UHGV virus genome: UHGV-0071542
Source of the DNA: a virus
Direction: 5' to 3' (one strand)
DNA: 40,492 nucleotides
Positions 20,157-33,992 of this stretch are shown here, piece after piece. A program made the position numbers and the translations under genes. Numbering within the stretch: position 1 is the stretch's first letter; every line of letters begins with the position of its first letter. Under the pieces are notes generated by a model, which saw only the letters and a program-made list of their open reading frames with translations, did not search any database and had not been told where the DNA came from.

Positions 20157-20453
20157 TCACTCCTGTTCACTGGCCTCTTTGGCCATCTTCAAATACTGTT
20201 CAGGGCAATGCGCCATAACGCGCTGAAACAGTTCCAGCGCCAGATTGCGTTGCCCCTCATTAAATGCCATTGCCATAGCGTCCATCGGTGAGATAGCGGA
20301 AAACACACGGCCTTTCTCCAGCACCGACCAGACAACGCGACGCCCCTGTTCACTGCTCATGACAAAGCGAATGTCATCAATTTCACGCTGCGCCATGTCA
20401 CGTTGCTTACGGGCGTTTTCTTCTTTCAGTTGATCGTCTTCGTAATCTGTCAT
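20157..20453 (-). CDS. Hypothetical head-assembly protein (98 aa)
   Basis: Coupled ORF between portal and scaffold. Confidence 0.4.
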   Translation of the reverse strand: MTDYEDDQLKEENARKQRDMAQREIDDIRFVMSSEQGRRVVWSVLEKGRVFSAISPMDAMAMAFNEGQRNLALELFQRVMAHCPEQYLKMAKEASEQE

Positions 20454-22129
20454 TGTGATTGCCCACCCTGACCACTAACTGCATTCGCCATAGCTGACAA
20501 AACACTCGGATCCGAAGTTTTAGCTTCGCTTAGCGTCTTGGCACCCTGTGCCGCCGCCATCCCCATCGCCATCATTTGTTGCTGCTGTTGCTGCTGTGCC
20601 CGTTGCTGGCGAGCATGCTCAACCTGTTCCTGCGGAACAATGACGGTTGGAGACACTCCGGACATATCAGCGAATGCATCGATCGCCTGATCAACGTTGA
20701 GTTTGTCGAGAGCTTCTGGTTTCGCTTGCGCAAGTTGACCAATGAAGTTAACCGTGGACGCCAGACTGGACAGGCCGATAGACTTCTGCGCCTGAGCCAT
20801 GACGGAAATGTATTCGACCTTCAGGGGCATGCCTTCCATCGCGTCAGGCGGTGGCGGCAGCGTGTTTTTACGCACCATCATCGAGAAAGCGCGGTCAATG
20901 AGAGGATTAAGACATTCGTCGTTCAGACGCTCCAGAACCGGCCCCAACATCAGAAGTTTTTCTTCTTTCATTTCGATCACCGCTTCAACAGGCATCGAGC
21001 GGGTATTGATGTTCTGCAACATCATGAACAGATCGACAAAGTAGGCGCTGTTAATGATTTGACGAGTGTCCTGAATGTCTGCCACCAAATCTGCTGTACT
21101 GGGGTTAACCAGATAAGCAGGCCTGAAGCCATCCTGACCAGTAATCTGATCGATATACGTGATGTCGCCAGGAAGAAGGGAGGCGCGCTGATTCTTGAGG
21201 GAAGTCGGAGCAACCATCGGCGGATTGGTGGCTTTATCAATCAACTGCGACTTGCGCTTCTGGAGAAGCTGCAATGCCTTAACAGGTCCAAGCGCCAGCA
21301 TACCCGGGCATGATGATCCATAAACATCTTCGCCGTTAACTTCCCAGCGCGGAGCCATAATTGGAAACTCATCGAATCCGGACTCACGCAACAACTTGTC
21401 GTTATCGCCACCAACCTCGTAATAAACCGATTTGAATGGCTTGTTCTTGCTATCCAGCTTCGATGTATCGCGGTCAATGTTCGGGTAAACCGAATGCATC
21501 ACTTCAATCCACTTCTCGTAGGTGCCGCTTTCCCACATGCTTTTTACGGATTCGCTGACGTTATTTAGCCCGAACTCCTGAACAAGCTGACGAACAGTCA
21601 TAGAGAACTTGCGAAAACAGGTGTCCACACTGCCACGAGGTGAGTTAGCCAGGTAGTAACTGCCTATCGGGAATGGCATTGTGCGAATGATGTCCTCGTC
21701 ATCCTCCAGCACTGCCATTGCACCAGTGCTGTATGTGCCGAGGCTTCCGTATAACTGCGGCAGCGACTGATAGAGATTCGACTTATTGAACATATCGTTC
21801 ATGCGGTTCTGCACCGCCTCAAGCCACAACTTAACAGGGCCATAATCCATCATTTCAGGATCTGGCGTAGCCAGGCGAAACCACGGACGCGCGGGGCTTG
21901 TGATGCCTGACATCATGCCGCTGGCGAGAGTGCGCGCCGCCATAGTCCCGGTCGAATCAATAATGCGTGTATTGCGTCGATCGTTACGGTTGACCTCAGA
22001 AGTCAGAAAGCGGGAACCACGTGGGTTGATGTAATCACTCAACTCGCGCCAGTGCGGCTCGAACGACTGACGCTCGCTTTCAAGTTGTGCGAACTGTTTG
22101 TTCAATCGCTCTTTAGTTGTTTCCGCCAT
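20450..22129 (-). CDS. Portal (head-to-tail connector) protein
   Basis: 559 aa with poly-Gln C-terminal tail; first large gene of the head module. Confidence 0.75.
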   Translation of the reverse strand: MAETTKERLNKQFAQLESERQSFEPHWRELSDYINPRGSRFLTSEVNRNDRRNTRIIDSTGTMAARTLASGMMSGITSPARPWFRLATPDPEMMDYGPVKLWLEAVQNRMNDMFNKSNLYQSLPQLYGSLGTYSTGAMAVLEDDEDIIRTMPFPIGSYYLANSPRGSVDTCFRKFSMTVRQLVQEFGLNNVSESVKSMWESGTYEKWIEVMHSVYPNIDRDTSKLDSKNKPFKSVYYEVGGDNDKLLRESGFDEFPIMAPRWEVNGEDVYGSSCPGMLALGPVKALQLLQKRKSQLIDKATNPPMVAPTSLKNQRASLLPGDITYIDQITGQDGFRPAYLVNPSTADLVADIQDTRQIINSAYFVDLFMMLQNINTRSMPVEAVIEMKEEKLLMLGPVLERLNDECLNPLIDRAFSMMVRKNTLPPPPDAMEGMPLKVEYISVMAQAQKSIGLSSLASTVNFIGQLAQAKPEALDKLNVDQAIDAFADMSGVSPTVIVPQEQVEHARQQRAQQQQQQQMMAMGMAAAQGAKTLSEAKTSDPSVLSAMANAVSGQGGQSQ

Positions 22130-22143
22130 TTCAATGACTCCGG

Positions 22144-22350
22144 TTACTGACCAAGCAGCGTTTTACCGCTGGTATTAGCGGTTGATGTGTCGCCCTGAGA
22201 ACCGGTAAGCAGCGTAGAACTACGACCAGCAGCAGCGCGACGGCGACGAGTTTCTTCGTCGCGGGCATCAACAACGGCGGCATCCTGCTCCTGTGGTGCT
22301 GCCTGAACTTCTGGTGTTGCAGGCACTGATGGTGAGCTACCCATGCACAT
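22144..22350 (-). CDS. Small low-complexity protein upstream of portal (68 aa)
   Basis: RBS GGAG 9 nt upstream of ATG; the alternative overlapping ORF 22131..22370 is less plausible. Confidence 0.35.
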   Translation of the reverse strand: MCMGSSPSVPATPEVQAAPQEQDAAVVDARDEETRRRRAAAGRSSTLLTGSQGDTSTANTSGKTLLGQ

Positions 22351-22440
22351 ATCAATGACTCCGTACGCAATTAAATTATTACCAATTTAACCACATATGA
22401 TTTATTTATCGTAGATAGTTGACATTTAACGCACAAATTA

Positions 22441-22455
22441 TTACCTTTCAGGTAA
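22441..22455. promoter_or_regulatory. Operator-like palindrome TTACCTTTCAGGTAA next to a TTGACA -35 hexamer
   Basis: Identical to the site at 5516-5530; TTGACA at 22419-22424. Confidence 0.5.
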
Positions 22456-22777
22456 GCAAAGAGTTCATTCCGGTTATTAACCTGACTGGCTTGTCGTTAA
22501 ATTGAACAGGTGGAGTGAGCTTTTATTTTGAGCAGTACGGCGTATGGCACATGCGCCGATAGCGGTCTGGATACGTTTAAGGGGCACCCTCCCTTGCTCG
22601 GGCAAACGAACCAGGTAGCCGGAATGTGCAAGTCGAGCGGTTTTATTCCGCGCACGGGGATTCACCATCCCGGCGATTCGGTGTGACGCCTCGGAAGAGA
22701 CGAGGGTACAACGATGAGAGCATTTATGGAGCCGCGACAAAGTGTGGTGCCTTAACAGGCTAAGTGCTCTCAGCGTT

Positions 22778-22854
22778 GTGGCATTAGCTCAGTTGGACAG
22801 AGCAACCGCCTTCTAAGCGGTTGGTCGCAGGTTCGAATCCTGCATGCCACGCCA
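22778..22854 (+). tRNA. tRNA-Arg (anticodon UCU), phage-encoded
   Basis: 77 nt; 7-bp acceptor stem GTGGCAT/ATGCCAC; D-arm GCTC..GAGC; anticodon loop CTTCTAA; T-arm GCAGG-TTCGAAT-CCTGC; 3' GCCA. Confidence 0.85.
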
Positions 22855-22897
22855 GAATCACGCCTAAGGACCGTGATACCAGAAGTTCCAGGTGCTT

Positions 22898-22939
22898 GGC
22901 GGTGATAGTTTCCCTTGAAGGACTATCACCGCCCTTTTT
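22898..22939 (+). terminator. Rho-independent terminator downstream of tRNA
   Basis: 12-bp perfect stem GGCGGTGATAGT/ACTATCACCGCC followed by CTTTTT. Confidence 0.7.
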
Positions 22940-23017
22940 ACAGCAGGACGCCATTGCGATGACTTCATGCTGTAAACCCGTGCAGCCACGGAAGGCATAA
23001 CTCATTGCTTCCAGTTC

Positions 23018-23041
23018 GCCCGGTTCGCCGGGCATTTTTTT
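23018..23041 (+). terminator. Second rho-independent terminator
   Basis: Hairpin GCCCGG-TTCG-CCGGGC followed by ATTTTTTT. Confidence 0.6.
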
Positions 23042-23057
23042 GCTTGATGACCGCAAA

Positions 23058-23072
23058 TTACCTTAAAGGTAT
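23058..23072. promoter_or_regulatory. Operator-like palindrome TTACCTTAAAGGTAT overlapping the moron promoter
   Basis: Lies between TTGATG (23044-23049) and TATAAT (23070-23075). Confidence 0.45.
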
Positions 23073-23076
23073 AATC

Positions 23077-23895
23077 ATGAAAAACTTCAAGGTAATTAGC
23101 ATGTTTGAATCGTTCAAAGAGCTGTTTTTATCTACTGCCAATACTGCCGTGAATCGAGCCAAAAACCCTGTGCTTGGTGCTTTTGTTATGTCCTGGTGCG
23201 CCTTCAACTGGAAATCAATTCTTTATCTATTTTTTAGCAAATCAAACATAATAGATAAAATTTCATATATCTCAGATAACAGCACATGGAAAACTGTTAT
23301 GTTTTATCCATGCTTATCTGTAATTGCTATCTGCTGCCTATTACCATGGGTAAACAATATCATTAACGTATGGCAAGCAAAGCCTCTTGATAATAATGAC
23401 TCAATCGAAAATCACCTGAAGGCAAGAAAAATCCAGCGTGAAACAAGACTGCAGAGGTTATTGGCTAAAAAAGATGTTACATACGACAAAGTTAAGACTG
23501 GCGCGGAAAAAGACATCCAAGAGATGAAAGAAGAGATTATTCGATCAAAGAATAGTATGGGGGAATTGACTGCCGAGTTGAAAGCTAAAGATGACGAATT
23601 GAGATCCGCCAGTGCTCAGTTAGCAGCTCTAAATCATTCATTAAAAGAGATATCGGAAACTCTTGGAAGAATGAATGAGGCATATAAGACCCTCCAAAAT
23701 GATTTCGACGAATACAAACTCAAATACCCTGAAAAATCTCAAATAAAAAGCCTTGCACTTGGCAACGGCCAAACAATTAGCAACTTTTTGGAGCAACACA
23801 ACTTATCCGGATTAAAATCTGGTAAGCCAAACGTTTTTAATAACTTTGGTGTTCTATCTGGATTATCAGGTTTCGAGGATAAAAATAAAGACTAA
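23077..23895 (+). CDS. AT-rich moron: membrane-anchored (2 TM) coiled-coil protein; candidate superinfection-exclusion/abortive-infection factor
   Basis: Low GC versus neighbours; two hydrophobic helices then long Lys/Glu-rich coiled coil; several AGA/AGG codons; stop overlaps terL stop convergently; true start may be ATG at 23101. Confidence 0.55.
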   Translation: MKNFKVISMFESFKELFLSTANTAVNRAKNPVLGAFVMSWCAFNWKSILYLFFSKSNIIDKISYISDNSTWKTVMFYPCLSVIAICCLLPWVNNIINVWQAKPLDNNDSIENHLKARKIQRETRLQRLLAKKDVTYDKVKTGAEKDIQEMKEEIIRSKNSMGELTAELKAKDDELRSASAQLAALNHSLKEISETLGRMNEAYKTLQNDFDEYKLKYPEKSQIKSLALGNGQTISNFLEQHNLSGLKSGKPNVFNNFGVLSGLSGFEDKNKD

Positions 23896-25367
23896 GCATA
23901 TGGATCGTACTCGGTAAGCGCCTTGCCTTGCTGGTTCTGCTGCCCGGGAAGTCGCAGGCGCTTTGACACCGGGAAAGCAAACGTCAGCAGTAGCGCATCG
24001 CCTTTACCAGGCGAACGCCCAAGTCGTTCTTTGATATCTTCCTTCGGTTCGATAACGATTTTACCGTCCACGCGAACTTTGTACTCTGCCGCCGACAGAT
24101 CGTCCGCTGTTTCCTGGTCATCCAGCATCCCGCCCAACCTCAGCCATGTCTTGCATGAGTTGAACATCTCCCCGCGCTTATTGAGCATCTGCGGGTCAGT
24201 AGACGCGCCGCCGAACGGAACAAGTTGCCAAGTACGCCCCCAGCCATCACCGATTGACTTCAAACCGGTTCCGTAACCGAAGTCGATGAACACCGCGTCA
24301 GCCTGATACTGGTCTTCAAAGTCAGCGATACGCTTCGCCATAATCAGATCGTCAGTGGTCTTGTTGCCAGTCCACAGCACCTTACTGTGTAGCCCCTGCC
24401 GCAGGTATATCACCGCGTCATCAACGCCTGAATATGCCGGGTCAACACCGATTATCACCGGAGCATGCGCCACCTGCGCAGCGGTTACCACCCGTTTCAT
24501 TGCCTCATCAGTAAGACCGGTAGGGATAAACTGCAATTCAGATGCATCAGGGAATATGCCGCGCACACGGATTTTAACGAAGTCGCTGTCTTCCCCGTAG
24601 TCATCAACCCATTTCTGCAACTGCTGTTTGTTAGTGCCTTCCACCGTCCGGCTGTCAATCTGCGCAGTTTTCCAGCGGTGTTTATATTTGCGGAAACATT
24701 CGCGGAAACGCCCGGTGTTACGTGTAGGGTTTCCGAACGCCACCCAGATAATCTCAGTGTCTTCGTCCGTAAGCGCACCCTCAGCAACTTCCCACACCAG
24801 ATCCGCAATGTTCGACGCTTCATCGAATACCACGATGATGCGTTTGCGCTCGTTGTGTAGTCCGGCGAATGCCTCAGTGTTGTGCTCAGACCAGGGGATT
24901 GCGTCAGCTCGCCACCGCTTGTCGTGCCCAGGATCATTGCTGTACATCGCGGTAGCGGTACAGGTAAACCAGTCTTTCGTGATAGCAAGGTTCGACCACT
25001 TGATAATTTCCGGCCAGGTCTTCGTTCGTAGCTGGTTGTCGGTGTTGGCGGTCACCACGACCTTACAATCCTCGCAAGTGGACATGCCCCAGTTGATCAG
25101 CATTGAGATGAATGCGGATTTACCAATACCGTGACCAGAAGCACGTGCCAGCATAAGCGGCTGATAACGCGTCTCTGGATTCTGCAGGTGATCACGTATC
25201 TCTCGGAACGCATCGGCCTGCCACTGACGTGGGCCGGTAGCATGTGCCAGTTCAGTCCCCTCTTCCCCCCACGGGAACGCATAGAGGGCATAGCCAAGCG
25301 GATCGTGAGTGAACCCTGCAATATCCTCGATTAACTGCTCTTCAGGAGATAACGCTGTATCTGTCAC
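23892..25367 (-). CDS. Terminase large subunit
   Basis: 491 aa with ATPase-like N-terminus and nuclease-like C-terminus; coupled downstream of terminase small subunit. Confidence 0.8.
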   Translation of the reverse strand: MTDTALSPEEQLIEDIAGFTHDPLGYALYAFPWGEEGTELAHATGPRQWQADAFREIRDHLQNPETRYQPLMLARASGHGIGKSAFISMLINWGMSTCEDCKVVVTANTDNQLRTKTWPEIIKWSNLAITKDWFTCTATAMYSNDPGHDKRWRADAIPWSEHNTEAFAGLHNERKRIIVVFDEASNIADLVWEVAEGALTDEDTEIIWVAFGNPTRNTGRFRECFRKYKHRWKTAQIDSRTVEGTNKQQLQKWVDDYGEDSDFVKIRVRGIFPDASELQFIPTGLTDEAMKRVVTAAQVAHAPVIIGVDPAYSGVDDAVIYLRQGLHSKVLWTGNKTTDDLIMAKRIADFEDQYQADAVFIDFGYGTGLKSIGDGWGRTWQLVPFGGASTDPQMLNKRGEMFNSCKTWLRLGGMLDDQETADDLSAAEYKVRVDGKIVIEPKEDIKERLGRSPGKGDALLLTFAFPVSKRLRLPGQQNQQGKALTEYDPYA

Positions 25368-25960
25368 TGATTACCATCCTGACGTTCTTTGAGTCGCTTC
25401 CTGGCTGCTGCTATGCGATCAGCAATTGTCACATTCACATTAACATCCAGACGTTCTTTGAACGCGTTGACATCAACATGCTTACCAATCAGCTCAAGGT
25501 TCTTCACCTTGTCAGGCCATTTAATTTTTTTGAGGATTGTCTCTATCGAATCCTCGTTCATGTTCATGATGGTCGATGACAAATCAAAGCCACTAAGCGT
25601 AGTGCGCCAGATTTTCGGCCACTCACGGATTGGTTTAAGGCTCCCATCGTCGTTGAGGATGTCGATCACGTCCATCTGGTCGATCTCCACTAGGCGCATG
25701 AGAACGTAATCAGCACTGACGCGCATTCGTTTGTTGCGCTCCTCCATCAACTCGGCAATCCGTTTTTGAATGCGTTCATCGCGCATCATGACACTGGCTT
25801 TAACTGCCGCTGTATTTGGGGAGAATCCTGCGTTAATCGCTGCCTGAGTCTGGTTTTCAGGCGTTTTGATGTATGACTGGCAATAAGCCTCCTGCATTGC
25901 TGTGAGCGGCTTAAATTGCGTTGATTTGCGTTTATAGGTTTTAGGTTCAGCAGGCATCAT
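25364..25960 (-). CDS. Terminase small subunit
   Basis: Helix-turn-helix-like N-terminus; precedes terL with overlap; start set to MMPAEP (ORF track extends upstream through a repeat region). Confidence 0.65.
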   Translation of the reverse strand: MMPAEPKTYKRKSTQFKPLTAMQEAYCQSYIKTPENQTQAAINAGFSPNTAAVKASVMMRDERIQKRIAELMEERNKRMRVSADYVLMRLVEIDQMDVIDILNDDGSLKPIREWPKIWRTTLSGFDLSSTIMNMNEDSIETILKKIKWPDKVKNLELIGKHVDVNAFKERLDVNVNVTIADRIAAARKRLKERQDGNQ

Positions 25961-25967
25961 AACCACC

Positions 25968-26000
25968 GTGGTAATAGTTACCGTTGTGGTAATAGTAACA
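25968..26000. repeat. Tandem direct repeat GTGGTAATAGT(T/A)AC x2 upstream of terS
   Basis: Copies at 25968-25981 and 25986-25999; contains GGTAA-N3-TTACC. Confidence 0.45.
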
Positions 26001-26034
26001 TGCAAAATAAAGCCGCCATAGTTGGCGGCAGCAT

Positions 26035-26268
26035 TCAAAGTCCATCAAATTCATCGTAAAAACTCTCGTCAAGATACCCTTCCCATTTACCGCGAATGAA
26101 AATTACATCCTCACCGCAAGGGTGCTGACTGTCGATAACTATATCCCTCCTGGCGCAACCATACTTGTGCATAAGAAATTTAACCTCTTTCGGAAAATTT
26201 GCTGAGTTATCTCTCATATCTTCAAGGTCGTAGCGTATTTTTGGCATAACACCTTCGTGACATGTCAC
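26035..26268 (-). CDS. Hypothetical protein (77 aa)
   Basis: Coupled ORF in early-right accessory block. Confidence 0.4.
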   Translation of the reverse strand: MTCHEGVMPKIRYDLEDMRDNSANFPKEVKFLMHKYGCARRDIVIDSQHPCGEDVIFIRGKWEGYLDESFYDEFDGL

Positions 26269-26606
26269 GCTATTAATTTCGTTTCATGCCAGCCTTTGGT
26301 CACCCAGCATTGCGAGTCACCATTACACGGGCATGAATTCACAGGAACTCTCTCGCCGCACTTACCGCAACGTTTTCTGCTGATAGATTTTATACGCCCG
26401 TGCACGCGTACATCATCCTGGCGGATCAGTAACGCGATATACTCACCAAATTCGTAAGGTGCACGCCCGGGGCGACGTGTGGCACAGTTACGCTCCAGCA
26501 TTTCAATTTCCTGAGCATCAAGCACAATCTCCAGCTTACGTACACCGGATTCAGCTTGTCTGGCTCTCTGAGCGGCTTTGCGCTCTGCTGCTGATTTAGC
26601 CATCAA
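26265..26606 (-). CDS. Hypothetical protein with C-terminal Cys-rich zinc-ribbon-like motif (113 aa)
   Basis: CGKCGE...CPCNGDSQC cluster. Confidence 0.4.
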   Translation of the reverse strand: MMAKSAAERKAAQRARQAESGVRKLEIVLDAQEIEMLERNCATRRPGRAPYEFGEYIALLIRQDDVRVHGRIKSISRKRCGKCGERVPVNSCPCNGDSQCWVTKGWHETKLIA

Positions 26607-27495
26607 TATTCACCTTTATCGCGTAAACCTTTATCGGTTTATCACCGAAGTGGGGGTGTGTGATTGTTTTCACTTCATATCCTCCATACGGAACATCAAT
26701 TCTGCGACTGGAGTCGTCGCGCTTCGGATATCCCTTTGTGATAATCAGGCGGTCATACTCGCGTAACATAATTCGCTTATTCCAGTAGTCATTACACAAG
26801 CGATACTCTTCCGTTTTCTCTCCGCGAATCATGGCATCGAAGTATTCACCTTTGACGGCAAGTTGCAGGTTAGCCACGGTTAACCTCCTGCGGCGTTCTG
26901 GTAGTGGCATCCAGTGTGTGACATTGCTAATCAGACCATATTCATTAGTTTGAGGATGGTTGCCGTTATCGTCTCCGTATTTAAGACTCTCCATAAAGCC
27001 ATAATGCCTATCACCATTAACGCTCACAAAGCCGTAATAAGCAGGTATAACGCCGATCTCACACGTAACCAGTAAAGGAAAACTAGTTCTCCAATTTAGC
27101 TCGCCAATTACAGGCATTCGCTCACTACAGCTTATCCAACCATCCGGAGTTACCGGAGAGTTGCCAGCGGCCTCGGGCATATCCGGACCTTTGCGAATAG
27201 CCTTTGCAAGCTCAACAGGGTCATCGTAAAGCCAGTCGCCAGTTTGTGGGTGATTTGCTTCTGCAAGCTGCGCAGCCCATTCAAGACCATCTTTTTGACC
27301 TTGGAGATAATCAAGCGGCAACTCTTCATGATTACTTGCAGGTTCGGCACTATCAGCTTCGCGCCGCTTCTGTAGCTCTGCTGCCATTGCTCTCACGACT
27401 TCAACTGGTGCCCTTGCAGCAAACTCTATGTTGGTGATCAGCTCATTAAGATATTGCTCGCCTGGATACTGTTTCTTATCGGTTATAGTGGTCAT
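26596..27495 (-). CDS. Ead/Ea22-like protein with DUF551-like and ASCH-like regions (299 aa)
   Basis: N-terminus MTTIT shared with 28265..28777; central motif resembling DUF551; C-terminal beta-barrel-like region. Confidence 0.45.
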   Translation of the reverse strand: MTTITDKKQYPGEQYLNELITNIEFAARAPVEVVRAMAAELQKRREADSAEPASNHEELPLDYLQGQKDGLEWAAQLAEANHPQTGDWLYDDPVELAKAIRKGPDMPEAAGNSPVTPDGWISCSERMPVIGELNWRTSFPLLVTCEIGVIPAYYGFVSVNGDRHYGFMESLKYGDDNGNHPQTNEYGLISNVTHWMPLPERRRRLTVANLQLAVKGEYFDAMIRGEKTEEYRLCNDYWNKRIMLREYDRLIITKGYPKRDDSSRRIDVPYGGYEVKTITHPHFGDKPIKVYAIKVNIDG

Positions 27496-27505
27496 GTGTT
27501 ACTCC

Positions 27506-27769
27506 TTAACCCGCAGTGCTTTCAACTGATGAGGGGAACAAAATCTTTTCATCAAACCCTGCATTCATATCATGAACAGCAACACACCAATCCATCGACG
27601 AACGATTATCAAGAGCCTCCATGATTTCATCCATGCGGCGCAGGTCATACAGGTAAATGCTTTTATCGCCAATGGTGTAAAAACCAATTTTTTTCGGTGA
27701 TGGACAGCGATCAAGAACGTCCTGTAATTCGCTCAACCATGCTTGTTCTTTTTTTGTCAAAGTTGCCAT
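27506..27769 (-). CDS. Hypothetical protein (87 aa)
   Basis: ORF with RBS; conserved junction element upstream. Confidence 0.4.
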   Translation of the reverse strand: MATLTKKEQAWLSELQDVLDRCPSPKKIGFYTIGDKSIYLYDLRRMDEIMEALDNRSSMDWCVAVHDMNAGFDEKILFPSSVESTAG

Positions 27770-27770
27770 A

Positions 27771-28262
27771 TCACTCTCCTTTGATGCGAATGCCAGTGGT
27801 ACTCATTCTCCTGATTTCCCAGAGCACACGAGGAACACCACCGTTTCCGACCGGATCGCGTTTACTCCGCAGGGCGACGCTTGATTCCGCCCAGCTTTTT
27901 CTTGGAGGAAGCTCTTTCACACGAACAAAACCAGCTGCGCGGAGAGATGCTCCTGATTCATCTGCCTGGGTGTACGTAATACAACGTTGATAACCCATAG
28001 CCTTTGCTGCCCGCCAGACAGCACCATAAAGTGCGCTGTTAGCGTTGCGTTCTCCTGTGGTACATGTGCGATTTACTTCAAGCGTTAATCCATCGTCCAA
28101 ATGTCGTGCAACAGGTCGACCAGCTGTCGCCACACCTATCAATTCTCCGGCATCATTTATCAGACCAATGCTGAATTTATGCCCCACCGGGGGTTTATTG
28201 TGTCGGTGATGTCTTGATATAAACGCCTTCGCAACACGAAGAGTAACCGGTGAAATTTGCAC
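27771..28262 (-). CDS. Hypothetical protein, possible GNAT-like fold (163 aa)
   Basis: GTG start 2 nt after upstream stop within junction AAAGGAGAGTGAGAGTG; C-terminal segment resembles GNAT core; weak. Confidence 0.4.
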   Translation of the reverse strand: MQISPVTLRVAKAFISRHHRHNKPPVGHKFSIGLINDAGELIGVATAGRPVARHLDDGLTLEVNRTCTTGERNANSALYGAVWRAAKAMGYQRCITYTQADESGASLRAAGFVRVKELPPRKSWAESSVALRSKRDPVGNGGVPRVLWEIRRMSTTGIRIKGE

Positions 28263-28264
28263 TC

Positions 28265-28777
28265 TCACTCTCCTTTGATGCCAATGTTTACAGCCTGGCA
28301 AGCCTCTTTGAGCACCCAGTCAACAGCGTCTTTCCATGCTCCGGTTTCGACTGGTGGATTTTCACGCTTAACCTGTTCATAGAAGCGCACTGCTTTAATC
28401 AATCCTTCTGGTGTCAGTGGCACAGGCGGGGCAGTGAATAACGCCTGAATTTCATAGTTCGGTCTGTCGTTGCAATCCTCTTTTGTCGGTACATATTTCC
28501 AGTCACCAACCCACGGCTCCCCCTGTGAGTCCGTAATGCTTTTTTTCACGTAGCGATATCGCCATGCCATCGGTTCTGCTTCCAGCGATGCCAGCACAAT
28601 TCGTGCCAGCTCACGCACAACTTCCGGCGGCGCGTAACGGTCATTCAGGTCATCCCACAGGCGTAGCATGTTATCGCTACCAGGGTGAACATCCTCGTTA
28701 GTTCCGGCAAGCGCACTAATAACCTCATCGGCTGCCTCAATAATTTTCAGAGCTTGTTCTCTGGTAATAGTGGTCAT
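28265..28777 (-). CDS. Ead/Ea22-like hypothetical protein (170 aa)
   Basis: N-terminus MTTITREQ; ends ...IGIKGE encoded by the junction element. Confidence 0.45.
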   Translation of the reverse strand: MTTITREQALKIIEAADEVISALAGTNEDVHPGSDNMLRLWDDLNDRYAPPEVVRELARIVLASLEAEPMAWRYRYVKKSITDSQGEPWVGDWKYVPTKEDCNDRPNYEIQALFTAPPVPLTPEGLIKAVRFYEQVKRENPPVETGAWKDAVDWVLKEACQAVNIGIKGE

Positions 28778-28983
28778 TTGTTAATCCTCAAAACTTTATG
28801 CCCGGGCGCAAAAGCACGCGTTTTGTCTTTGCTTATTCGCCAGCCATCCTTGCGCGCCTCTTTTGCACAGCCAGCCCATGACGTACCGATATACTCACCG
28901 AAGTCTGGCACTGGATATACACCTTCCGTACACTGGCGGCAGTCACAATAGAGATGCATTGTGTAACTTGCGGCAATAGCCAT
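28774..28983 (-). CDS. Small Cys-rich protein (about 70 aa)
   Basis: ATG after AAGGAGAG RBS; motif HLYCDCRQC. Confidence 0.4.
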   Translation of the reverse strand: MAIAASYTMHLYCDCRQCTEGVYPVPDFGEYIGTSWAGCAKEARKDGWRISKDKTRAFAPGHKVLRINK

Positions 28984-28984
28984 A

Positions 28985-29173
28985 TCACTCTCCTTTAGTG
29001 CGCAAGTGGTTTTTCCAGCGGTTTTGCGCCGCGCTGGGCTTTTTGCAAAAACCACAATCCATCATCCCGTAATATTTCATCAACCCCATCCGTCGGTTGC
29101 TGAGTCTCACCCACTGCCAGACGCCAGGAGCGTTTCTACGAACTAACAGAATCTTTGCTTTACGGTTTTTCAT
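28985..29173 (-). CDS. Small basic protein (62 aa)
   Basis: RBS GGAGAG; ends ...TKGE at junction element. Confidence 0.35.
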   Translation of the reverse strand: MKNRKAKILLVRRNAPGVWQWVRLSNRRMGLMKYYGMMDCGFCKKPSAAQNRWKNHLRTKGE

Positions 29174-29345
29174 CGCTTTGCTCTCCTGCGTCTCTTTGCT
29201 GCTCGTCGTGCCGCTGCAATACCGGTATGGCGGCGCTTTGGTGCCGGGATGATGTTGTCAGCCATCAGGACATACGGCTTTGCAATTAGCGCAGAAGCCC
29301 AAAAACGAGTCGGGTACGGTAACAAGCCAATACATGCCACACGCA

Positions 29346-29834
29346 CTACTCACCTCCGTTGATGCGAATGCCTGTTGCAATGCTGTTTATGATGCTGTCA
29401 GTGTATGGGGTAGAAAGCTGGGCATCTCCAGCAATTTTCATGACATCAACATCTGCATATCGAATACCGAGGTGTATCAGACCGGCTATACCTGACTTAA
29501 GCCGAGCATTTTCCATAAACAGATCCTTTGCCCGCTGTTTTTCTGCCTCAAGCTCAACGCGCAACTTCCCTACCGTTAGCGCAATATCCTCGTTCTCCTG
29601 GTCGCGTGATTTGATGTATTGCTGGTTCCTTTCCCGTTCATCCAGTAGTGCCAGCACGGTTTCTGGTCCGGCCAGAAATTTGAAGGCGTTGAGCGCATCA
29701 ATATCCACACCGTAATCTTTAAGTTCCTGTTCACTTAACAAATCATCATCAGCTGGCAACATTAACAGGCGTTCCATTGCTGGAATTGCACGTTCCGCCG
29801 CCTCACGCAGTGCCTGGTAATTAATTTCGCTCAC
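29346..29834 (-). CDS. Hypothetical coiled-coil protein
   Basis: GTG start overlapping upstream stop (GTGA); RBS AAGGAAG. Confidence 0.4.
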   Translation of the reverse strand: MSEINYQALREAAERAIPAMERLLMLPADDDLLSEQELKDYGVDIDALNAFKFLAGPETVLALLDERERNQQYIKSRDQENEDIALTVGKLRVELEAEKQRAKDLFMENARLKSGIAGLIHLGIRYADVDVMKIAGDAQLSTPYTDSIINSIATGIRINGGE

Positions 29835-30490
29835 TGGCTGCTTCCTTTGCGAATTTGTTCCGCCCATTCTTCAAGGGATTTCTCCGCATATTCACCAGAC
29901 AGGCCATCAATCGGATGCGCTTCATTAGCCAACTCTTCTTTCGCTGACAAAATCATGCGTGTAACGTCGAAAACTTCACGCAAAGACTTATTGATAAATC
30001 CGTGATTGAACGCAGCAGCAAGACGGCTGGCGGTATAGTTAATCCCCTCGTTGCGTGCTTCCGCACGAATTTCAGTCAGGAAAGCATCGGTGGCTGGAAT
30101 GGGCTTTTGTGGTGATATAGCAATGCGAATTGTCTCAAGGTCTGGATCTGTTTCCGCTGCTGGAACCTTGATATAACCCATCTGCACCCCATTCATGATG
30201 AACCTGCGACGGTCATCACATATCGCCTTTAGCCCCGCATTCTCCGCTGCCAGCGCCGAAAACTTCTCGTGTGCCAACTTAACAGCCGCATCAGCCTGCT
30301 TAATTGATTCAATCGCTTTCTGGTGGTCTTCGGCCAGCGCATTAGCACGCACCAGTTGCACTTCCAGTTGCGTTGCCAAATCGCTGATCAGCTTTGCCAC
30401 ACTGCGCATATCAACGGCACCACATTCAGCTTTCAGTTCCGAAGCCATCTCATGCCCGGCGGAAACTAACCCTTTGATATTACCGTCCAT
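29831..30490 (-). CDS. Hypothetical protein (219 aa)
   Basis: Coupled ORF downstream of DUF1064-like gene. Confidence 0.4.
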   Translation of the reverse strand: MDGNIKGLVSAGHEMASELKAECGAVDMRSVAKLISDLATQLEVQLVRANALAEDHQKAIESIKQADAAVKLAHEKFSALAAENAGLKAICDDRRRFIMNGVQMGYIKVPAAETDPDLETIRIAISPQKPIPATDAFLTEIRAEARNEGINYTASRLAAAFNHGFINKSLREVFDVTRMILSAKEELANEAHPIDGLSGEYAEKSLEEWAEQIRKGSSQ

Positions 30491-30551
30491 CTTTACCCTC
30501 GCTTATCCACATAACTTATTGATTACATTGATAACTAAAAAGATCGTCGAT

Positions 30552-30896
30552 TCAGAACTCTTCGATGTTCCAGCCACCACCTGCTTTCTTTGGCTTAACC
30601 GTTACCCCGATGATTCGGAACGGATACTGATCTGCGGCGACTTTGGTTTTCACTCTGGCGTCATCGGTCCAGAAACCTTTCACTTCGTGTAGTTCCATCT
30701 CGCCGGTGGCGAGCATCACAGCAAAATCGGGCGTATAGAACGTGTTGTCAGCTAACCGCAGCTTGATACCCTCGAATCGATACCAGGCGATTTCCCCTGC
30801 ACGTTTACGCAGCTCAAGGTGCTGGCAATACGCAGATTCTGTTTTGTTCATCTGGCCTGTTTTGAGTCGACCAAGAGCCTGTATCTGTTTTCTCAT
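30552..30896 (-). CDS. DUF1064-like protein (114 aa)
   Basis: Small protein downstream of replication genes; recalled resemblance to DUF1064; start codon 5 nt downstream of GAGGT inside operator-like site. Confidence 0.45.
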   Translation of the reverse strand: MRKQIQALGRLKTGQMNKTESAYCQHLELRKRAGEIAWYRFEGIKLRLADNTFYTPDFAVMLATGEMELHEVKGFWTDDARVKTKVAADQYPFRIIGVTVKPKKAGGGWNIEEF

Positions 30897-30899
30897 GAT

Positions 30900-30914
30900 T
30901 TACCTCTAAGGTAA
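30900..30914. promoter_or_regulatory. Operator-like palindrome TTACCTCTAAGGTAA overlapping the RBS, just downstream of TAATTA
   Basis: Minus sense: TTGATT-18nt-TTAATTACCTTAGAGGTAAATCATG, same arrangement as at 34039-34081. Confidence 0.5.
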
Positions 30915-30961
30915 TTAAAAACCACATAAGACACGAAATCAATAGAGTTTAGAATATTTTA

Positions 30962-30976
30962 TTACCCAACAGGTAA
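30962..30976. promoter_or_regulatory. Operator-like palindrome TTACCCAACAGGTAA inside a promoter spacer
   Basis: Minus sense: TTGATA-ATTACCTGTTGGGTAA-TAAAAT (16-nt spacer). Confidence 0.5.
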
Positions 30977-31013
30977 TTATCAAGGCGTAAAAAAATGCGC
31001 TATCGCGCTGGTA

Positions 31014-31814
31014 TTACTTGATAAATCCTGCCGCCTTTCCCCGCCTGTATTCCTCCATCAGCCACTGCGCCGGTGTTATTCCCCCAAGGGTGGCGGCGTT
31101 AGGCATGCACCCGAAACTTCGCCCTGGTGGATGGTAAACGTCTCTCCCTGTGTCCGGAGGCGTACTCATGGGTTCTGGCTTTGCCTGTATGCTGATCACC
31201 GGATCGGGTATCTGCTGTCCGGAAGCCACCTTTTTCGCCCAATCATCGAGCAGCCTGCGCGCGTGTTTCTCAACCTCTATCTCGCTAAGCTGGCGCTGAT
31301 ACATTGCACGGCGGGTATCACATACGACCCAGTACATAACCGGATGCCGCCACGGGAATCTTTCGGGACCACCAGGATATAAACTTTTTTCCTTGCTGTA
31401 CCGGTGAAACTCCGTCATCACATCGTCAATGGTGACGCCAAGAACCATCTTGCTGTCTTTGCACCACTTGATGAATTGCCCTGGCGACGGCCAGAACGGA
31501 GAATCACTGGCGCGGGCGTGGCGCATACCAGCAGAAACCTGTTCACGGGTTCGGATCCCCCCTTCGGCAAACGCAGCAATCCACTGCTGTTTTGCAGCAA
31601 CTTCCTGCTCTGGCGTCTTCAGGTTGGTTACCACTGCCGCCGGAAACAGTTGTTTCAACTGTTTGAAAAGGGCATCAACAAGCCTCTCTGCTGACATGTT
31701 CACTACGTTGTCATTGTTGACGTACTGATGCTCATAACCTGACATGCGAGAAAGGGCTTCTCCGTCACGGTTTTGTATTGCGGTAAAAACGTTGTTCACA
31801 AGAAATCCTCCCAT
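31014..31814 (-). CDS. Replication protein P-like helicase loader
   Basis: GMRHARASDSPFWPSPGQFIKWC aligns with lambda P GMRVARRQNRPFLPSPGQFVAWC; follows the initiator gene. Confidence 0.75.
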   Translation of the reverse strand: MGGFLVNNVFTAIQNRDGEALSRMSGYEHQYVNNDNVVNMSAERLVDALFKQLKQLFPAAVVTNLKTPEQEVAAKQQWIAAFAEGGIRTREQVSAGMRHARASDSPFWPSPGQFIKWCKDSKMVLGVTIDDVMTEFHRYSKEKSLYPGGPERFPWRHPVMYWVVCDTRRAMYQRQLSEIEVEKHARRLLDDWAKKVASGQQIPDPVISIQAKPEPMSTPPDTGRDVYHPPGRSFGCMPNAATLGGITPAQWLMEEYRRGKAAGFIK

Positions 31815-32611
31815 GCTTCAGGGCTGTTCCAGTGCGGAACGTTGTTATCAGGTAATGTTGATTGCTTCTGTCTGCTAATCTGCAGCCGCCTTGCCAGCTT
31901 CTGCTCCCACTGCGCCTGATGGTATGCCTTACCCTCAGCCATCCAGTAAATTCTGAACTCTGCAAGTTCCTGTGCCGTTGGCAGACTGTCCAGGTAGATC
32001 CCCTGCAATGAGCTTTTCCGAAGAAAGTCATCTGATGGTTGCCATTGTTCATGCATGACAAATTTGCCTAATTGCCCTGGCCCACCAGGAGGAACAAAGT
32101 TATTCATCACGGCGTTGTTTGCGCCGGGGTCATGAGGCACAGAATCCCCGCTTTTTGTCCTGCTCTCCCTCTCTTGGTTAAATGACTGGTTATATGACTG
32201 GTTCTGGATCCCGTTTTTGGGATCATTCAACATCCCGTTTTTGGGATCATTCAACATCCCGTTTTTGTGTATATTCCCGTTTTCGGTAACATTACCGTTT
32301 TCGGGTTCATTACCCCCTTCCCGGTTGCCTTTAATGTTCCCGTTTTTGGTTATATTAAGAGAGAAAACCCGCACTCTTTTCGTCGCTCCCTTTCTCTCTC
32401 CGGTATCTGAAATAAGCCCCATTTTCATGAGCGATATAAGCCCGGCCTGCACGGTTTTTTTATTCAGGCAAGTGTCTTTAACGAGGCGTTCTATGCTGGG
32501 GTAGCAGAGGTTATATTCATCGGCTCTGTCAGCCATCGAGAGCAGTATGAGCTTTAATGACGAGCTACCTGGATCTGTCTCCCAGGCCCAATCTGTTGCA
32601 TGTCTGCTCAT
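31796..32611 (-). CDS. Replication initiator (HTH N-terminus, Asn/Gly-rich middle encoded by iterons, DnaT-like C-terminus)
   Basis: Iteron array lies inside the coding region as in lambda O; precedes P-like gene. Confidence 0.6.
   Translation of the reverse strand: MSRHATDWAWETDPGSSSLKLILLSMADRADEYNLCYPSIERLVKDTCLNKKTVQAGLISLMKMGLISDTGERKGATKRVRVFSLNITKNGNIKGNREGGNEPENGNVTENGNIHKNGMLNDPKNGMLNDPKNGIQNQSYNQSFNQERESRTKSGDSVPHDPGANNAVMNNFVPPGGPGQLGKFVMHEQWQPSDDFLRKSSLQGIYLDSLPTAQELAEFRIYWMAEGKAYHQAQWEQKLARRLQISRQKQSTLPDNNVPHWNSPEAWEDFL
32209..32356. repeat. Origin iterons: about 6 copies of TCCCGTTTT(T)NGG, including two exact 24-mers TCCCGTTTTTGGGATCATTCAACA
   Basis: Exact 24-mers at 32209-32232 and 32233-32256, degenerate copies to about 32356; ATGACTGGTT x2 at 32181-32203. 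Confidence 0.7.
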
Positions 32612-32626
32612 GATTAATCTCCGCTA

Positions 32627-32827
32627 TCAGCTTGAATGTTGTGGGGAGGAATTAATCATGATCTGCTTAATCTCTGCCCTGATACGACGGTTTGATTCCA
32701 TGGTGCACTCAACACAGTGTCCGTTGTAAACCCAGCGTTCACTGTCATGTCCGTGCTTACATGTTTTTCCGGTGTAGTAGCGTTTAAGTCCGCGCTTTGC
32801 GGCATCAATACGTGTAATGATTTCCAT
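32627..32827 (-). CDS. Small zinc-ribbon-like protein (66 aa)
   Basis: ATG at 32827; motif CKHGH...CVEC. Confidence 0.4.
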   Translation of the reverse strand: MEIITRIDAAKRGLKRYYTGKTCKHGHDSERWVYNGHCVECTMESNRRIRAEIKQIMINSSPQHSS

Positions 32828-32906
32828 GGTAAGCCCTGTTATTAGTATTGGGATTACGGTTATTTTGTGCTGACACAAAAAAAAGATCAACCATATTTGG
32901 TTTTTT

Positions 32907-32921
32907 ATTACCTTTGAGGTA
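32907..32921. promoter_or_regulatory. Operator-like site TTACCTTTGAGGTAC (one arm imperfect)
   Basis: Between a hairpin after the Cro-like gene (about 32931-32960) and the next gene. Confidence 0.4.
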
Positions 32922-32977
32922 CGAATAGATATGAAAAGACCGCCGGATGGCGGTCTACAGAGGGTTGTGGCTGGATA

Positions 32978-33208
32978 TCATGAGTAGAAGAAGTATGCCA
33001 GTTCTGCTTTTGAGCGCAGCCATTGTCTTGATTTACAGGCTTTAAAAAGCCCATCCATCAATACCTTACCTGGCATTTTGCGCTTACCTGTTAAGTGAGT
33101 CTGGATATAGTGACTCGTCGTTCCGGCTTCCTGTGCGAAGGCTTCACGCTCATCCGGAGTAAGTGCAAGCCAGTGCTTTTTGAAATCGAAATGTCCGTTA
33201 TCGCTCAT
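32978..33208 (-). CDS. Cro-like HTH regulator (76 aa)
   Basis: Small HTH protein transcribed divergently from the repressor gene toward replication genes. Confidence 0.55.
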   Translation of the reverse strand: MSDNGHFDFKKHWLALTPDEREAFAQEAGTTSHYIQTHLTGKRKMPGKVLMDGLFKACKSRQWLRSKAELAYFFYS

Positions 33209-33244
33209 AGCTATTGCCTGATATTTATTTCAGATAATAAATAT

Positions 33245-33307
33245 TCACCTATAAGGTAACAAAAATCAAGGATAGTTACCCATGAGGTGCATTTACCTGT
33301 TGGGTAA
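33245..33307. promoter_or_regulatory. Divergent promoter/operator region with three operator-like sites
   Basis: TCACCTATAAGGTAA (33245-33259), TTACCCATGAGGTGC (33276-33290), TTACCTGTTGGGTAA (33293-33307); minus-sense -35 TTGTTA and -10 TATTAT overlap the first site. Confidence 0.55.
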
Positions 33308-33362
33308 TATTGCTTTAAATTGAATCATCTACTGATTCATATATGAGGCGATTTTCCAGAAA

Positions 33363-33947: not shown

Positions 33948-33967
33948 AACTATAGTTTTCAGCAAGT

Positions 33968-33992
33968 AAGCCGCCTCATGGCGGCTTTTTTA
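33968..33992 (+). terminator. Rho-independent terminator after repressor gene
   Basis: Hairpin AGCCGCC-TCAT-GGCGGCT followed by TTTTTTATT. Confidence 0.65.

What the first reader, a model, noticed from the sequence alone, without database searches (positions are those of the whole stretch)
23044..23895. AT-rich membrane/coiled-coil moron with its own repressible promoter between terminase and portal
The 23077/23101..23895 ORF is on the opposite strand to the late operon and visibly lower in GC than its neighbours. It encodes two predicted TM helices followed by a long Lys/Glu-rich coiled coil. It has its own promoter (TTGATG...TATAAT) overlapped by an operator-like palindrome and is preceded by two terminators. 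Its stop codon overlaps the terL stop convergently. This is the expected architecture for a lysogen-expressed accessory gene such as superinfection exclusion or abortive infection; I do not recognise the protein family.
Basis: partly seen in the sequence, partly recalled or inferred. Interest (0 to 1): 0.66.

Follow-up and report, generated by a model that had tools for sequence, protein, structure and literature searches.

The report
Repressor-gated membrane coiled-coil phage cargo gene
A real, mobile accessory gene of an E. coli phiV10/epsilon15-like prophage encodes an uncharacterised membrane-anchored coiled-coil protein, and its promoter carries the prophage repressor's own operator, so it is probably switched on at infection or induction, not in the quiet lysogen.

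Summary
The start codon is ATG 23101, not 23077. The conserved -35 is ATGACC at 17-bp spacing, not TTGATG.

The window is a phiV10/epsilon15-like (Uetakevirus) E. coli prophage. Positions 23042-23895 are one of at least five alternative cargoes in a slot between terL and tRNA-Arg.

The 264-aa protein has two N-terminal membrane helices, a strongly constrained juxtamembrane helix and a cytoplasmic coiled coil of about 90 residues that evolves fast. It belongs to a large family (PHROG 4780 and relatives; 415 cluster representatives at E<=1e-10). That family has no Pfam, PDB, PADLOC or fold match, and no homology to P22 SieA or SieB.

The "operator-like palindrome" is real. TACC-N5-GGTA occurs 11 times in the window (0.21 expected), including at OL, OR and other promoters. 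It is the motif annotated as the repressor site in epsilon15. The window encodes the cognate repressor, a homologue of SPC32H Rep.

The promoter is therefore repressible, but most likely by the prophage repressor itself. That argues against constitutive expression in the lysogen. The protein's function (phage exclusion or abortive infection at the membrane, versus host takeover) is inferred, not shown.

The parts
22419..22454 (+). Putative Rep-controlled promoter pointing at tRNA-Arg: TTGACA (22419-22424), 17 nt, TACCTT. The -10 position is the left half of operator 22442-22454.
   Evidence: Sequence. The equivalent site is annotated 'repressor' in epsilon15. Promoter assignment is inference.
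22778..22854 (+). tRNA-Arg (anticodon TCT), part of the conserved backbone
   Evidence: ARAGORN; Rfam tRNA, 73 bits
22898..22940 (+). Intrinsic terminator 1: 14-bp stem followed by a T-run, ending the tRNA unit
22937..22976 (.). Conserved imperfect hairpin (18-nt arms) between the two terminators; function unknown
   Evidence: fold z = -2.8 for 22934-23042; conserved in all slot types and in escaped cassettes
23018..23041 (+). Intrinsic terminator 2 (GCCCGG/CCGGGC followed by T7). The backbone/cargo junction lies directly after it.
   Evidence: Homology to phiV10 and to other cargo types stops at 23041.
23047..23052 (+). -35 hexamer ATGACC; the core xTGACx is conserved throughout the family
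23059..23071 (.). Rep-type operator TACCTTAAAGGTA, a perfect 6-1-6 palindrome. It fills the promoter spacer, and its last two bases (TA) are the first two bases of the -10.
   Evidence: 11 copies in the window against 0.21 expected. Same motif as the annotated epsilon15 repressor sites. Conserved in cassettes.
23070..23075 (+). -10 hexamer TATAAT
   Evidence: TAnnAT conserved in the family
23082..23094 (.). Degenerate second site AAACTTCAAGGTA, 23 bp after the first, over the expected transcript start and the SD (AAGG 23089-23092)
   Evidence: (repeats D1 and I2). Its role is inference.
23101..23895 (+). Cargo ORF, 264 aa plus stop; member of PHROG 4780
   Evidence: dN/dS 0.01-0.48
23101..23385 (+). 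aa 1-95: family-defining two-helix membrane domain (invariant G26, N36, W37, P82). Predicted topology is N-in/C-in with a periplasmic loop of about 17 aa.
   Evidence: Topology comes from the positive-inside rule and is inference.
23386..23580 (+). aa 96-160: the most constrained segment among enterobacterial members (dN/dS 0.01-0.04)
23476..23745 (+). aa 126-215: continuous heptad coiled coil. From about aa 160 onward it is hypervariable or replaced between alleles.
23892..25367 (-). terL (large terminase). Its stop overlaps the cargo stop in a 4-nt convergent overlap at 23892-23895.

Best explanation
Positions 23042-23895 are a horizontally mobile accessory-gene cassette. It fills a variable cargo slot between terL and the tRNA-Arg/portal module of a phiV10/epsilon15-like prophage.

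The cassette has three parts:
- a sigma-70 promoter (-35 ATGACC, 17 bp, -10 TATAAT);
- a perfect copy of the genus-wide Rep (prophage repressor) operator TACC-N5-GGTA, which occupies the promoter spacer;
- a 264-codon gene that starts at 23101.

The protein is anchored in the inner membrane by a conserved two-helix domain. It exposes to the cytoplasm a strongly constrained juxtamembrane helix and a coiled coil of about 90 residues that evolves fast.

Most likely mode of working (inferred): Rep keeps the gene off or low in the stable lysogen. The gene fires together with PL and PR when Rep is absent or is removed by antirepressor, that is, on fresh infection or induction. Convergent late transcription, and perhaps the Cro-like protein if it shares these operators, would then cut expression short, giving an early pulse.

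The membrane-anchored oligomer then acts at the cytoplasmic face of the membrane on DNA entry or development of competing phages (superinfection exclusion or abortive infection). The conserved membrane domain would be the effector and the swappable coiled coil would set specificity. In phages that lack Rep, where the cassette has escaped, expression would be constitutive.
For: Shown:
- Cargo status. In 78 prophages with terL at least 98% identical, the slot holds five cargo types or is empty: 30, 24, 10, 6 and 2 loci, plus 6 empty. All cargo genes are on the anti-late strand.
- Real, constrained gene. 415 cluster representatives at E<=1e-10; dN/dS 0.01-0.48.
- Membrane plus coiled-coil architecture.
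- Operator. The motif occurs 11 times against 0.21 expected. It lies at OR, at PL (two sites 62 bp apart) and at the DUF1064 promoter (two sites 62 bp apart). phiV10 has 10 sites at the equivalent places. The epsilon15 RefSeq record annotates ATTACC-N5-GGTAAT as repressor sites.
- Cognate repressor. It is 99% identical to phiV10 p40 and is a full-length homologue of SPC32H Rep, PDB 5D50. According to PMC9782041, the ZX5 repressor ORF21 has the same sequence as phiV10 ORF40, and its overexpression abolished free phage.
- Conserved layout. The promoter/operator layout is kept across cassettes whose proteins are only 26-30% identical.
- Decay outside Uetakevirus. The palindrome is degenerate in 4 of 8 cassettes outside Uetakevirus backbones against 1 of 26 inside (Fisher p = 0.007; 0.045 with the distant subfamily; the sequences are not independent).

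Suggestive for an anti-phage role:
- Alleles 26-75% identical sit beside terL genes 85-95% identical.
- The cassette has repeatedly escaped into accessory regions of lambdoid phages. In two of these it lies close to a SIR2 defence-type gene or a STAND-like ATPase.
- The architecture parallels P22 sieA.
Against: - No experiment or transcript data exist. Rep binding to this site is inferred from motif identity only.
- The site is single, with at best a degenerate partner 23 bp away. SPC32H Rep is described as binding DNA as a tetramer, with the dimer binding weakly (PMC9638917), so occupancy in the lysogen could be partial.
- There is no homology to any known exclusion, Abi or defence protein and no structural match.
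- The AF2 model is of low overall confidence (pTM 0.23).
- No dN/dS above 1 was found. The C-terminal variability could reflect low constraint on a coiled coil rather than an arms race.
- The palindrome is still intact in about half of the cassettes that sit in phages without the regulon.
Confidence: 0.45

Rival explanations
1. One reading: a classical moron expressed constitutively from the repressed prophage, giving the lysogen superinfection exclusion or abortive infection. On this view the palindrome serves only to shut the gene off during lytic growth (for example through the Cro-like protein), or is bound too weakly by Rep to matter.
For: - Own promoter with a perfect -10, deviant GC and anti-late orientation.
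- Same layout as P22 sieA, inside the late region.
- The cassette persists, with promoter intact, in lambdoid prophages that lack the TACC-N5-GGTA regulon. There it must be constitutive and tolerated.
- The operator is single, whereas Rep is reported to bind as a tetramer (PMC9638917).
Against: - The operator is the most symmetric copy in the genome. It sits in the spacer and -10, as in PR, a position that blocks RNA polymerase.
- The same motif marks the epsilon15 sites annotated as repressor/lysogeny sites.
- Rep is encoded in the same prophage.
Confidence: 0.25
2. An early lytic-cycle helper for the phage itself rather than an anti-phage weapon. It would be a membrane protein made at derepression that counters a membrane-based host defence, or modulates envelope, division or lysis timing (host takeover or counter-defence).
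For: - Co-regulation with PL and PR through the Rep operator.
- Early accessory genes of temperate phages are commonly host-takeover or anti-defence functions (general knowledge, e.g. lambda and P22 ral, kil, abc).
- Rapid allele turnover beside a conserved terL.
Against: - The gene is dispensable. Phages with almost identical terL carry other cargo or an empty slot.
- No similarity to known anti-defence, holin or spanin families.
- In lambdoid prophages it would be expressed constitutively, which suggests a benefit in the lysogen.
Confidence: 0.2
3. No specific function: a decaying or selfish AT-rich insert, or a mis-called ORF.
For: No recognised domain; low-confidence structure model.
Against: - Hundreds of homologues with invariant residues.
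- dN/dS well below 1 in every segment.
- Conserved promoter, SD and start codon.
Confidence: 0.02

Closest known systems
P22 sieA (superinfection exclusion gene inside the late region)
   Same: - A small inner-membrane protein gene on the strand opposite to the surrounding late genes, with its own promoter.
- An accessory gene of a temperate podovirus.
   Different: - No sequence similarity (hhalign probability below 1%; Pfam).
- sieA carries no repressor operator in the record's annotation.
- This protein is larger, with a long cytoplasmic coiled coil, and its promoter holds the Rep operator.
T4 Imm/Sp and other exclusion proteins made early in infection
   Same: A membrane protein predicted to be made in an early pulse of infection rather than from a resting prophage. 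This is a functional analogy only (own knowledge).
   Different: - Different phage type; no homology found in the Pfam scan.
- Exclusion has not been demonstrated here.
Rep operator regulon of epsilon15/SPC32H-type phages
   Same: - Identical palindrome, ATTACC-N5-GGTA(AT), and position over the core promoter.
- The cognate Rep is encoded in the window.
   Different: In epsilon15 and phiV10 the sites flank backbone genes (terS, gp3, OL, OR and others), and the cargo slot has none. Here an extra site travels with the cargo cassette.
PHROG 4780 / 13369 / 35327 (phage protein families of unknown function)
   Same: Full-length HMM match (E = 3e-137) to PHROG 4780. The N-terminal domain matches the other two.
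   Different: These families carry no functional annotation, so membership names the protein without explaining it.
phiV10 p03 / epsilon15 p50 (Pfam Phage_gp49_66), the commonest cargo of the same slot
   Same: Same slot, same strand, mutually exclusive with this gene.
   Different: - An unrelated 123-aa soluble protein.
- It has no promoter or operator of its own: it starts 11-17 nt after terminator 2.
- It keeps the terL-proximal bidirectional terminator.

Membership tests
Moron (Hendrix/Juhala sense) | Extra gene present in some but not all closely related phages at the same position | tested here: met
   The slot holds five cargo types or is empty among 78 loci with terL at least 98% identical.
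Moron (Hendrix/Juhala sense) | Own promoter | tested here: met
   Consensus match of 10/12. The -35/-10 layout is conserved across cassettes down to 26% protein identity. Not tested experimentally.
Moron (Hendrix/Juhala sense) | Own downstream terminator | tested here: not met
   The ORF stop overlaps the terL stop. The terL-proximal bidirectional terminator seen with other cargoes is missing.
Moron (Hendrix/Juhala sense) | Base composition unlike the neighbours | tested here: met
   GC 0.33-0.40 against 0.52-0.56
Moron (Hendrix/Juhala sense) | Expressed from the repressed prophage | not testable with these tools
   No transcript data. The Rep operator in the promoter spacer argues against it.
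Rep (SPC32H/epsilon15/phiV10) operator regulon | Palindrome ATTACC-N5-GGTAAT | tested here: met
   23057-23073 reads ATTACCTTAAAGGTATA; the core TACC-N5-GGTA is exact. Motif count is 11 against 0.21 expected. It matches the annotated epsilon15 sites.
Rep (SPC32H/epsilon15/phiV10) operator regulon | Cognate repressor encoded in the same genome | tested here: met
   33363-33947 is 99% identical to phiV10 p40 and matches PDB 5D50 at E = 3.5e-42.
Rep (SPC32H/epsilon15/phiV10) operator regulon | Site overlaps the core promoter | tested here: met
   The operator at 23059-23071 lies between the -35 (23047-52) and the -10 (23070-75). PR has the same arrangement.
Rep (SPC32H/epsilon15/phiV10) operator regulon | Rep binds the site and represses transcription | not testable with these tools
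   Needs EMSA, ChIP or a reporter assay.
P22 SieA / SieB | Sequence homology | tested here: not met
   hhalign probability 0.2% for both. No Pfam SieB hit.
P22 SieA / SieB | Exclusion phenotype | not testable with these tools
   Needs a phage challenge.
Known anti-phage defence systems (PADLOC-DB v2.0.0) | HMM match beyond coiled-coil noise | tested here: not met
   Best hits (DndD, PbeC, LmuB, JetC; E >= 2e-5) cover only the coiled-coil stretch.
Holin / spanin | Family HMM match and position in the lysis cassette | tested here: not met
   No Pfam, NCBIfam or PHROG lysis hit. In phiV10 the lysis genes lie elsewhere in the genome.
PHROG 4780 | Full-length HMM match | tested here: met
   E = 3.2e-137, profile positions 1-267 of 275

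The most novel reading that the evidence does not exclude
The protein founds a widespread, unnamed class of phage-borne membrane effectors. Each has a conserved two-helix 'FNW' membrane domain plus an exchangeable cytoplasmic coiled coil that sets specificity, and excludes or aborts competing phages.

In Uetakeviruses this weapon is wired directly to the master repressor's operator. It would therefore act as an infection- or induction-phase immunity pulse rather than as lysogenic conversion. The operator travels with the cargo as part of a plug-in promoter module.
Probability: 0.25. Interest if true: 0.7.

Novelty: new variant of a known kind. Interest (0 to 1): 0.52.

Why it matters
If the inference holds, three things follow.
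- It adds an uncharacterised and very common protein family, with hundreds of clusters and no Pfam model, to the list of phage-encoded membrane effectors.
- It gives a clean natural system of allele swapping, with a conserved membrane domain and exchangeable coiled coils beside a nearly invariant terL, for studying specificity.
- It shows that a 'moron'-like cargo can carry the resident repressor's operator, so that accessory genes are not necessarily lysogen-expressed. This affects how prophage cargo is interpreted in genome scans.

The operator map also gives a testable regulon for a phage group used in O157 and Salmonella detection and typing.

Tried and rejected
- Domain and family searches: Pfam, NCBIfam, PADLOC and a PDB sequence profile gave only coiled-coil noise. 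Ten distant homologues scanned against Pfam also showed no shared domain.
- Structure: the AF2 model was of low confidence (pLDDT 66.5, pTM 0.23). Foldseek against PDB and BFVD found nothing with E<1. The afdb50 library was unavailable.
- Known exclusion proteins: hhalign against P22 SieA and SieB found no relation.
- RNA: Rfam, at gathering and at permissive thresholds, found no RNA family other than the tRNA around the terminators and leader.
- Positive selection: dN/dS was below 1 everywhere and dS was partly saturated.
The narrower one returned only 4 loci.
- Literature: there were no hits for the family or accession. The primary epsilon15 and SPC32H papers are not held. The accessory-gene screen preprint does not cover this phage group.
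- TTGATG as the -35 was rejected: it needs a 20-bp spacer and is not conserved.
- A MerR-type activation reading of the spacer operator was considered and dropped, because the conserved -35 gives a normal 17-bp spacer.
- ATG 23077 as the start codon was rejected.

Full report
**Setting**

The window is an E. coli prophage of the phiV10/epsilon15 type (genus Uetakevirus).
- The 2-kb region 22100-24100 is 99-100% identical to chromosomal prophages in 38 of 5,426 complete E. coli genomes. A further ~1,065 genomes (1,103 with any match) share only part of it.
- In sequenced phages (phiV10, ZX5 and others) only the flanks match, 54-58% of the query.
- The late genes run on the - strand: terS 25364-26038, terL 23892-25367, a 68-aa gene 22144-22350 and portal 20450-22129.
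- Between terL and the 68-aa gene, on the + strand, lie tRNA-Arg(TCT) at 22778-22854, two intrinsic terminators and the ORF in question.

**Check of the observation**

- GC falls to 0.33-0.40 over the ORF, against 0.52-0.56 on either side.
- The protein has two hydrophobic segments at about aa 24-46 and 64-91.
- It has an unbroken heptad register from about aa 126 to 215 that no shuffle of 500 reaches. AF2 models aa 134-208 as one helix with pLDDT 85-90, although the overall model is poor (pLDDT 66.5, pTM 0.23).
- The stop codon TAA at 23893-23895 overlaps the terL stop.

Two corrections follow from comparison with homologues.
- The start is ATG 23101. Every homologue starts there, and the PHROG 4780 match starts at that Met.
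- ATG 23077 is absent from related cassettes and lies 1 nt after the -10.
- The conserved -35 is (A/G)TGAC(C/T) at 23047-23052 with a 17-bp spacer, not TTGATG with 20 bp.

**What the locus is**

Homology to phiV10 and to all other slot variants ends at 23041, immediately after the T-run of terminator 2. It resumes at the terL stop. The cargo is therefore 23042-23891. The two terminators belong to the backbone (the tRNA unit).

I took an unbiased sample of 78 IMG/VR contigs whose terL is at least 98% identical. The slot contents were as follows.

| Slot content | Loci |
|---|---|
| 123-aa Phage_gp49_66 protein (phiV10 p03 type) | 30 |
| 103-aa ORF | 24 |
| This gene | 10 |
| p03 variant | 6 |
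| Empty slot (129 nt) | 6 |
| 115-aa repeat protein | 2 |

All cargo genes are on the anti-late strand.

**The protein family**

No Pfam, NCBIfam, PADLOC, PDB-sequence or fold match exists beyond coiled-coil noise. There is no relation to P22 SieA or SieB.

The protein is a full-length member of PHROG 4780 (unknown function, E = 3e-137), with N-terminal matches to PHROGs 13369 and 35327.
- A word-indexed search gave at least 200 relatives. Every one that carries a source name (about half of the 120 listed) is from an enterobacterial genus, and none has a functional name.
- A profile of the N-terminal 165 aa, searched against 1.84 billion cluster representatives, gave 2,530 hits at E<=1e-3 and 415 at E<=1e-10. 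Among the 150 best hits most are 200-350 aa, apart from some shorter, apparently partial sequences, and most match from residue 1.

Across the family the conserved core is the first ~95 residues, with invariant G26, N36, W37 and P82 and near-invariant R19, P23, F28, W32 and P70. What follows is always coiled coil but often cannot be aligned.

Among enterobacterial members aa 96-160 are almost invariant. Nei-Gojobori estimates on five full-length alleles are below.

| Segment | dN/dS |
|---|---|
| aa 1-95 | 0.05-0.13 |
| aa 96-160 | 0.01-0.04 |
| aa 161-264 | 0.12-0.48 |

The gene is therefore real and constrained. Its tail is relaxed or exchanged, but positive selection was not demonstrated.

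Charge distribution favours an N-in/C-in topology with a periplasmic loop of about 17 aa and a cytoplasmic coiled coil: the N-terminus and the post-TM2 stretch are basic, and the loop is acidic or neutral. This is inference.

**Mobility**

Of 70 IMG/VR loci that encode relatives, almost all sit in the same slot of Uetakevirus-like prophages of E. coli, Klebsiella and relatives, next to terL with the gene's 3' end at or overlapping the terL stop.
- Alleles only 26-30% identical to this protein occupy the same slot in Rahnella-type prophages whose terL is 85% identical.
- The cassette has also escaped into lambdoid phages, between the replication and nin regions or near the immunity region. There it is followed by a 26-150-aa remnant of the terL 3' end and preceded by the backbone segment 22937-23041. 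These are footprints of illegitimate recombination out of the Uetakevirus slot.
- A distant relative lies in the accessory region of a Vibrio inovirus.
- In two lambdoid loci the gene lies close to a defence-type SIR2 gene, with one small ORF between them, or near a STAND-like ATPase. This is weak guilt by association.

**The palindrome is the prophage repressor's operator**

TACC-N5-GGTA occurs 11 times in the 40.5-kb window against 0.21 expected; none of 100 shuffles exceeded 2. With the tighter pattern and one mismatch there are 12 sites against 0.56 expected.

The sites lie at the following places.
- In the intergenic region between a Cro-like gene and the repressor gene (three sites, two of them with one mismatch). 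One of them lies in the spacer of PR.
- Flanking PL, two sites 62 bp apart.
- Flanking the promoter of the DUF1064 gene, again two sites 62 bp apart.
- After the cro terminator.
- Just upstream of the true terS start.
- Upstream of the 68-aa/portal genes, next to a TTGACA that points at the tRNA.
- Upstream of int.
- In the tailspike-proximal divergent region.
- In the cargo promoter.

phiV10 has 10 sites at the equivalent positions and none in its slot. The epsilon15 RefSeq record annotates ATTACC-N5-GGTAAT sites as 'protein_bind: repressor, lysogeny' at these same kinds of position.

The window's repressor (33363-33947) carries an HTH_3 domain and a weaker N-terminal Cro-like (YdaS) match.
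- It is 99% identical to phiV10 p40.
- The ZX5 paper states that phiV10 ORF40 and its ORF21 have the same sequence. ORF21 overexpression abolished free phage and cut holin and endolysin transcripts by more than 99.9% (PMC9782041).
- It is a full-length homologue of SPC32H Rep, PDB 5D50. Rep is described as a tetramer that binds palindromic sites and is removed by an antirepressor (PMC9638917, discussing Kim et al. 2016, which I could not read).

**The operator in the cargo promoter**

The operator, TACCTTAAAGGTA, is a perfect 6-1-6 palindrome. It fills the spacer, and its last two bases are the first two of the -10.

The layout (A/G)TGAC(C/T)-N6-TACC-N5-GG[TA]nnAT is conserved in essentially all cassettes, including those whose proteins are only 26-30% identical.

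The palindrome is degenerate in 4 of 8 distinct cassettes outside Uetakevirus backbones, against 1 of 26 inside (p = 0.007; 0.045 if the distant subfamily is added; the sequences are not independent). This fits a constraint imposed by a Uetakevirus regulator.

**Interpretation**

The most likely repressor, however, is the prophage's own Rep.
- The expected behaviour is off or low in the lysogen, with a pulse of expression on infection or induction alongside PL and PR.
- That pulse would be curtailed by convergent late transcription and perhaps by the Cro-like protein, if it shares these operators as in lambda.
- This departs from the classical lysogen-expressed moron.

The caveat is that the site is single. 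Its only candidate partner is a degenerate site 23 bp downstream at 23082-23094, and Rep is said to bind well only as a tetramer. Partial expression in lysogens therefore cannot be excluded.

Three points favour a role in phage-phage or phage-host conflict at the cytoplasmic face of the inner membrane:
- the invariant polar and proline positions inside the membrane helices;
- the fast turnover of the coiled coil beside an almost invariant terL;
- the repeated spread of the cassette into accessory regions.

I commit to exclusion or abortive infection of competing phages as the most likely role, at roughly 0.45 for the whole model. A self-serving early host-takeover or counter-defence role is the main functional rival, and constitutive lysogenic expression is the main regulatory rival.

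**Comparison and novelty**

P22 sieA is the closest analogue in architecture, and T4 Imm/Sp in predicted timing. Neither is related in sequence.

The operator regulon is already annotated for epsilon15. What is new here is that a copy of the operator rides with a cargo cassette, and that the cargo belongs to a very large family that has no Pfam or functional name.

I rate it a new variant of a known kind, of moderate interest.

Noticed in passing
window 5517, 22442, 23059, 25979, 30901, 30963, 32909, 33294, 34006, 34068, 40195 (one-mismatch sites at 25961, 33246, 33277): A phage-wide operator regulon. TACC-N5-GGTA occurs 11 times against 0.21 expected, and many of the sites lie directly after a rho-independent terminator. 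The pairs at PL and at the DUF1064 promoter are each exactly 62 bp apart, which fits one Rep tetramer bridging two sites.
   Followed up: yes
window 22419-22777: A perfect TTGACA at 22419-22424, then 17 nt, then TACCTT (the left half of the operator) points at tRNA-Arg. It is followed by about 320 nt of GC-rich leader with no Rfam match. The tRNA may itself be Rep-controlled and preceded by an unknown structured RNA.
   Followed up: partly
window 22934-23042: A segment of about 100 nt between the two terminators contains an 18-nt-arm hairpin. It is conserved in all slot types and is even carried along into lambdoid phages. It folds better than shuffles (z = -2.8) but has no obvious promoter. 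It could be a tandem-terminator insulator or a small RNA.
   Followed up: partly
window 25958-26038: The terS start is probably the MMPAEP methionine near 25960, not the annotated TTG at 26038. The 5' extension contains two Rep-type sites and follows a terminator. EC.W1-9 and epsilon15 annotate the shorter terS.
   Followed up: partly
L002/L159 (phiV10) 2630-2660 in record coordinates; slot types in L084 and L106: The commonest cargo (p03, Pfam Phage_gp49_66) starts 11-17 nt after the T-run of terminator 2 and has no promoter of its own. It must depend on read-through of two terminators or on an unrecognised promoter.
   Followed up: no
L003 5794-5949; L039 6804-7217; L048 6739-7035; also L038, L040-L042: Cassettes that moved into lambdoid phages drag along a 26-150-aa fragment of the terL 3' end. 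In L048 it is an intact 98-aa ORF. These are fossils of the recombination that exported the cassette.
   Followed up: partly
E. coli HL15 and SF10 (NZ_CP079771.1, NZ_CP079768.1): The same locus (99% identical over the 2-kb query) appears both in the chromosome and on a separate 41,027-bp record in the same assemblies. The phage was probably excised or replicating when the strain was sequenced.
   Followed up: no
L073 6001-6717: One family member sits on the same strand as the structural genes, between a scaffold-like gene and a capsid-like gene of a different phage type whose portal is only 27% identical. Its palindrome is degenerate.
   Followed up: no
window 24100-38000 versus NZ_AP022222.1: The best-matching E. 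coli prophage is not collinear with the window over its whole length. There is an offset of about 2.5 kb in the early/integrase region, so the early region of the window differs from that record.
   Followed up: no
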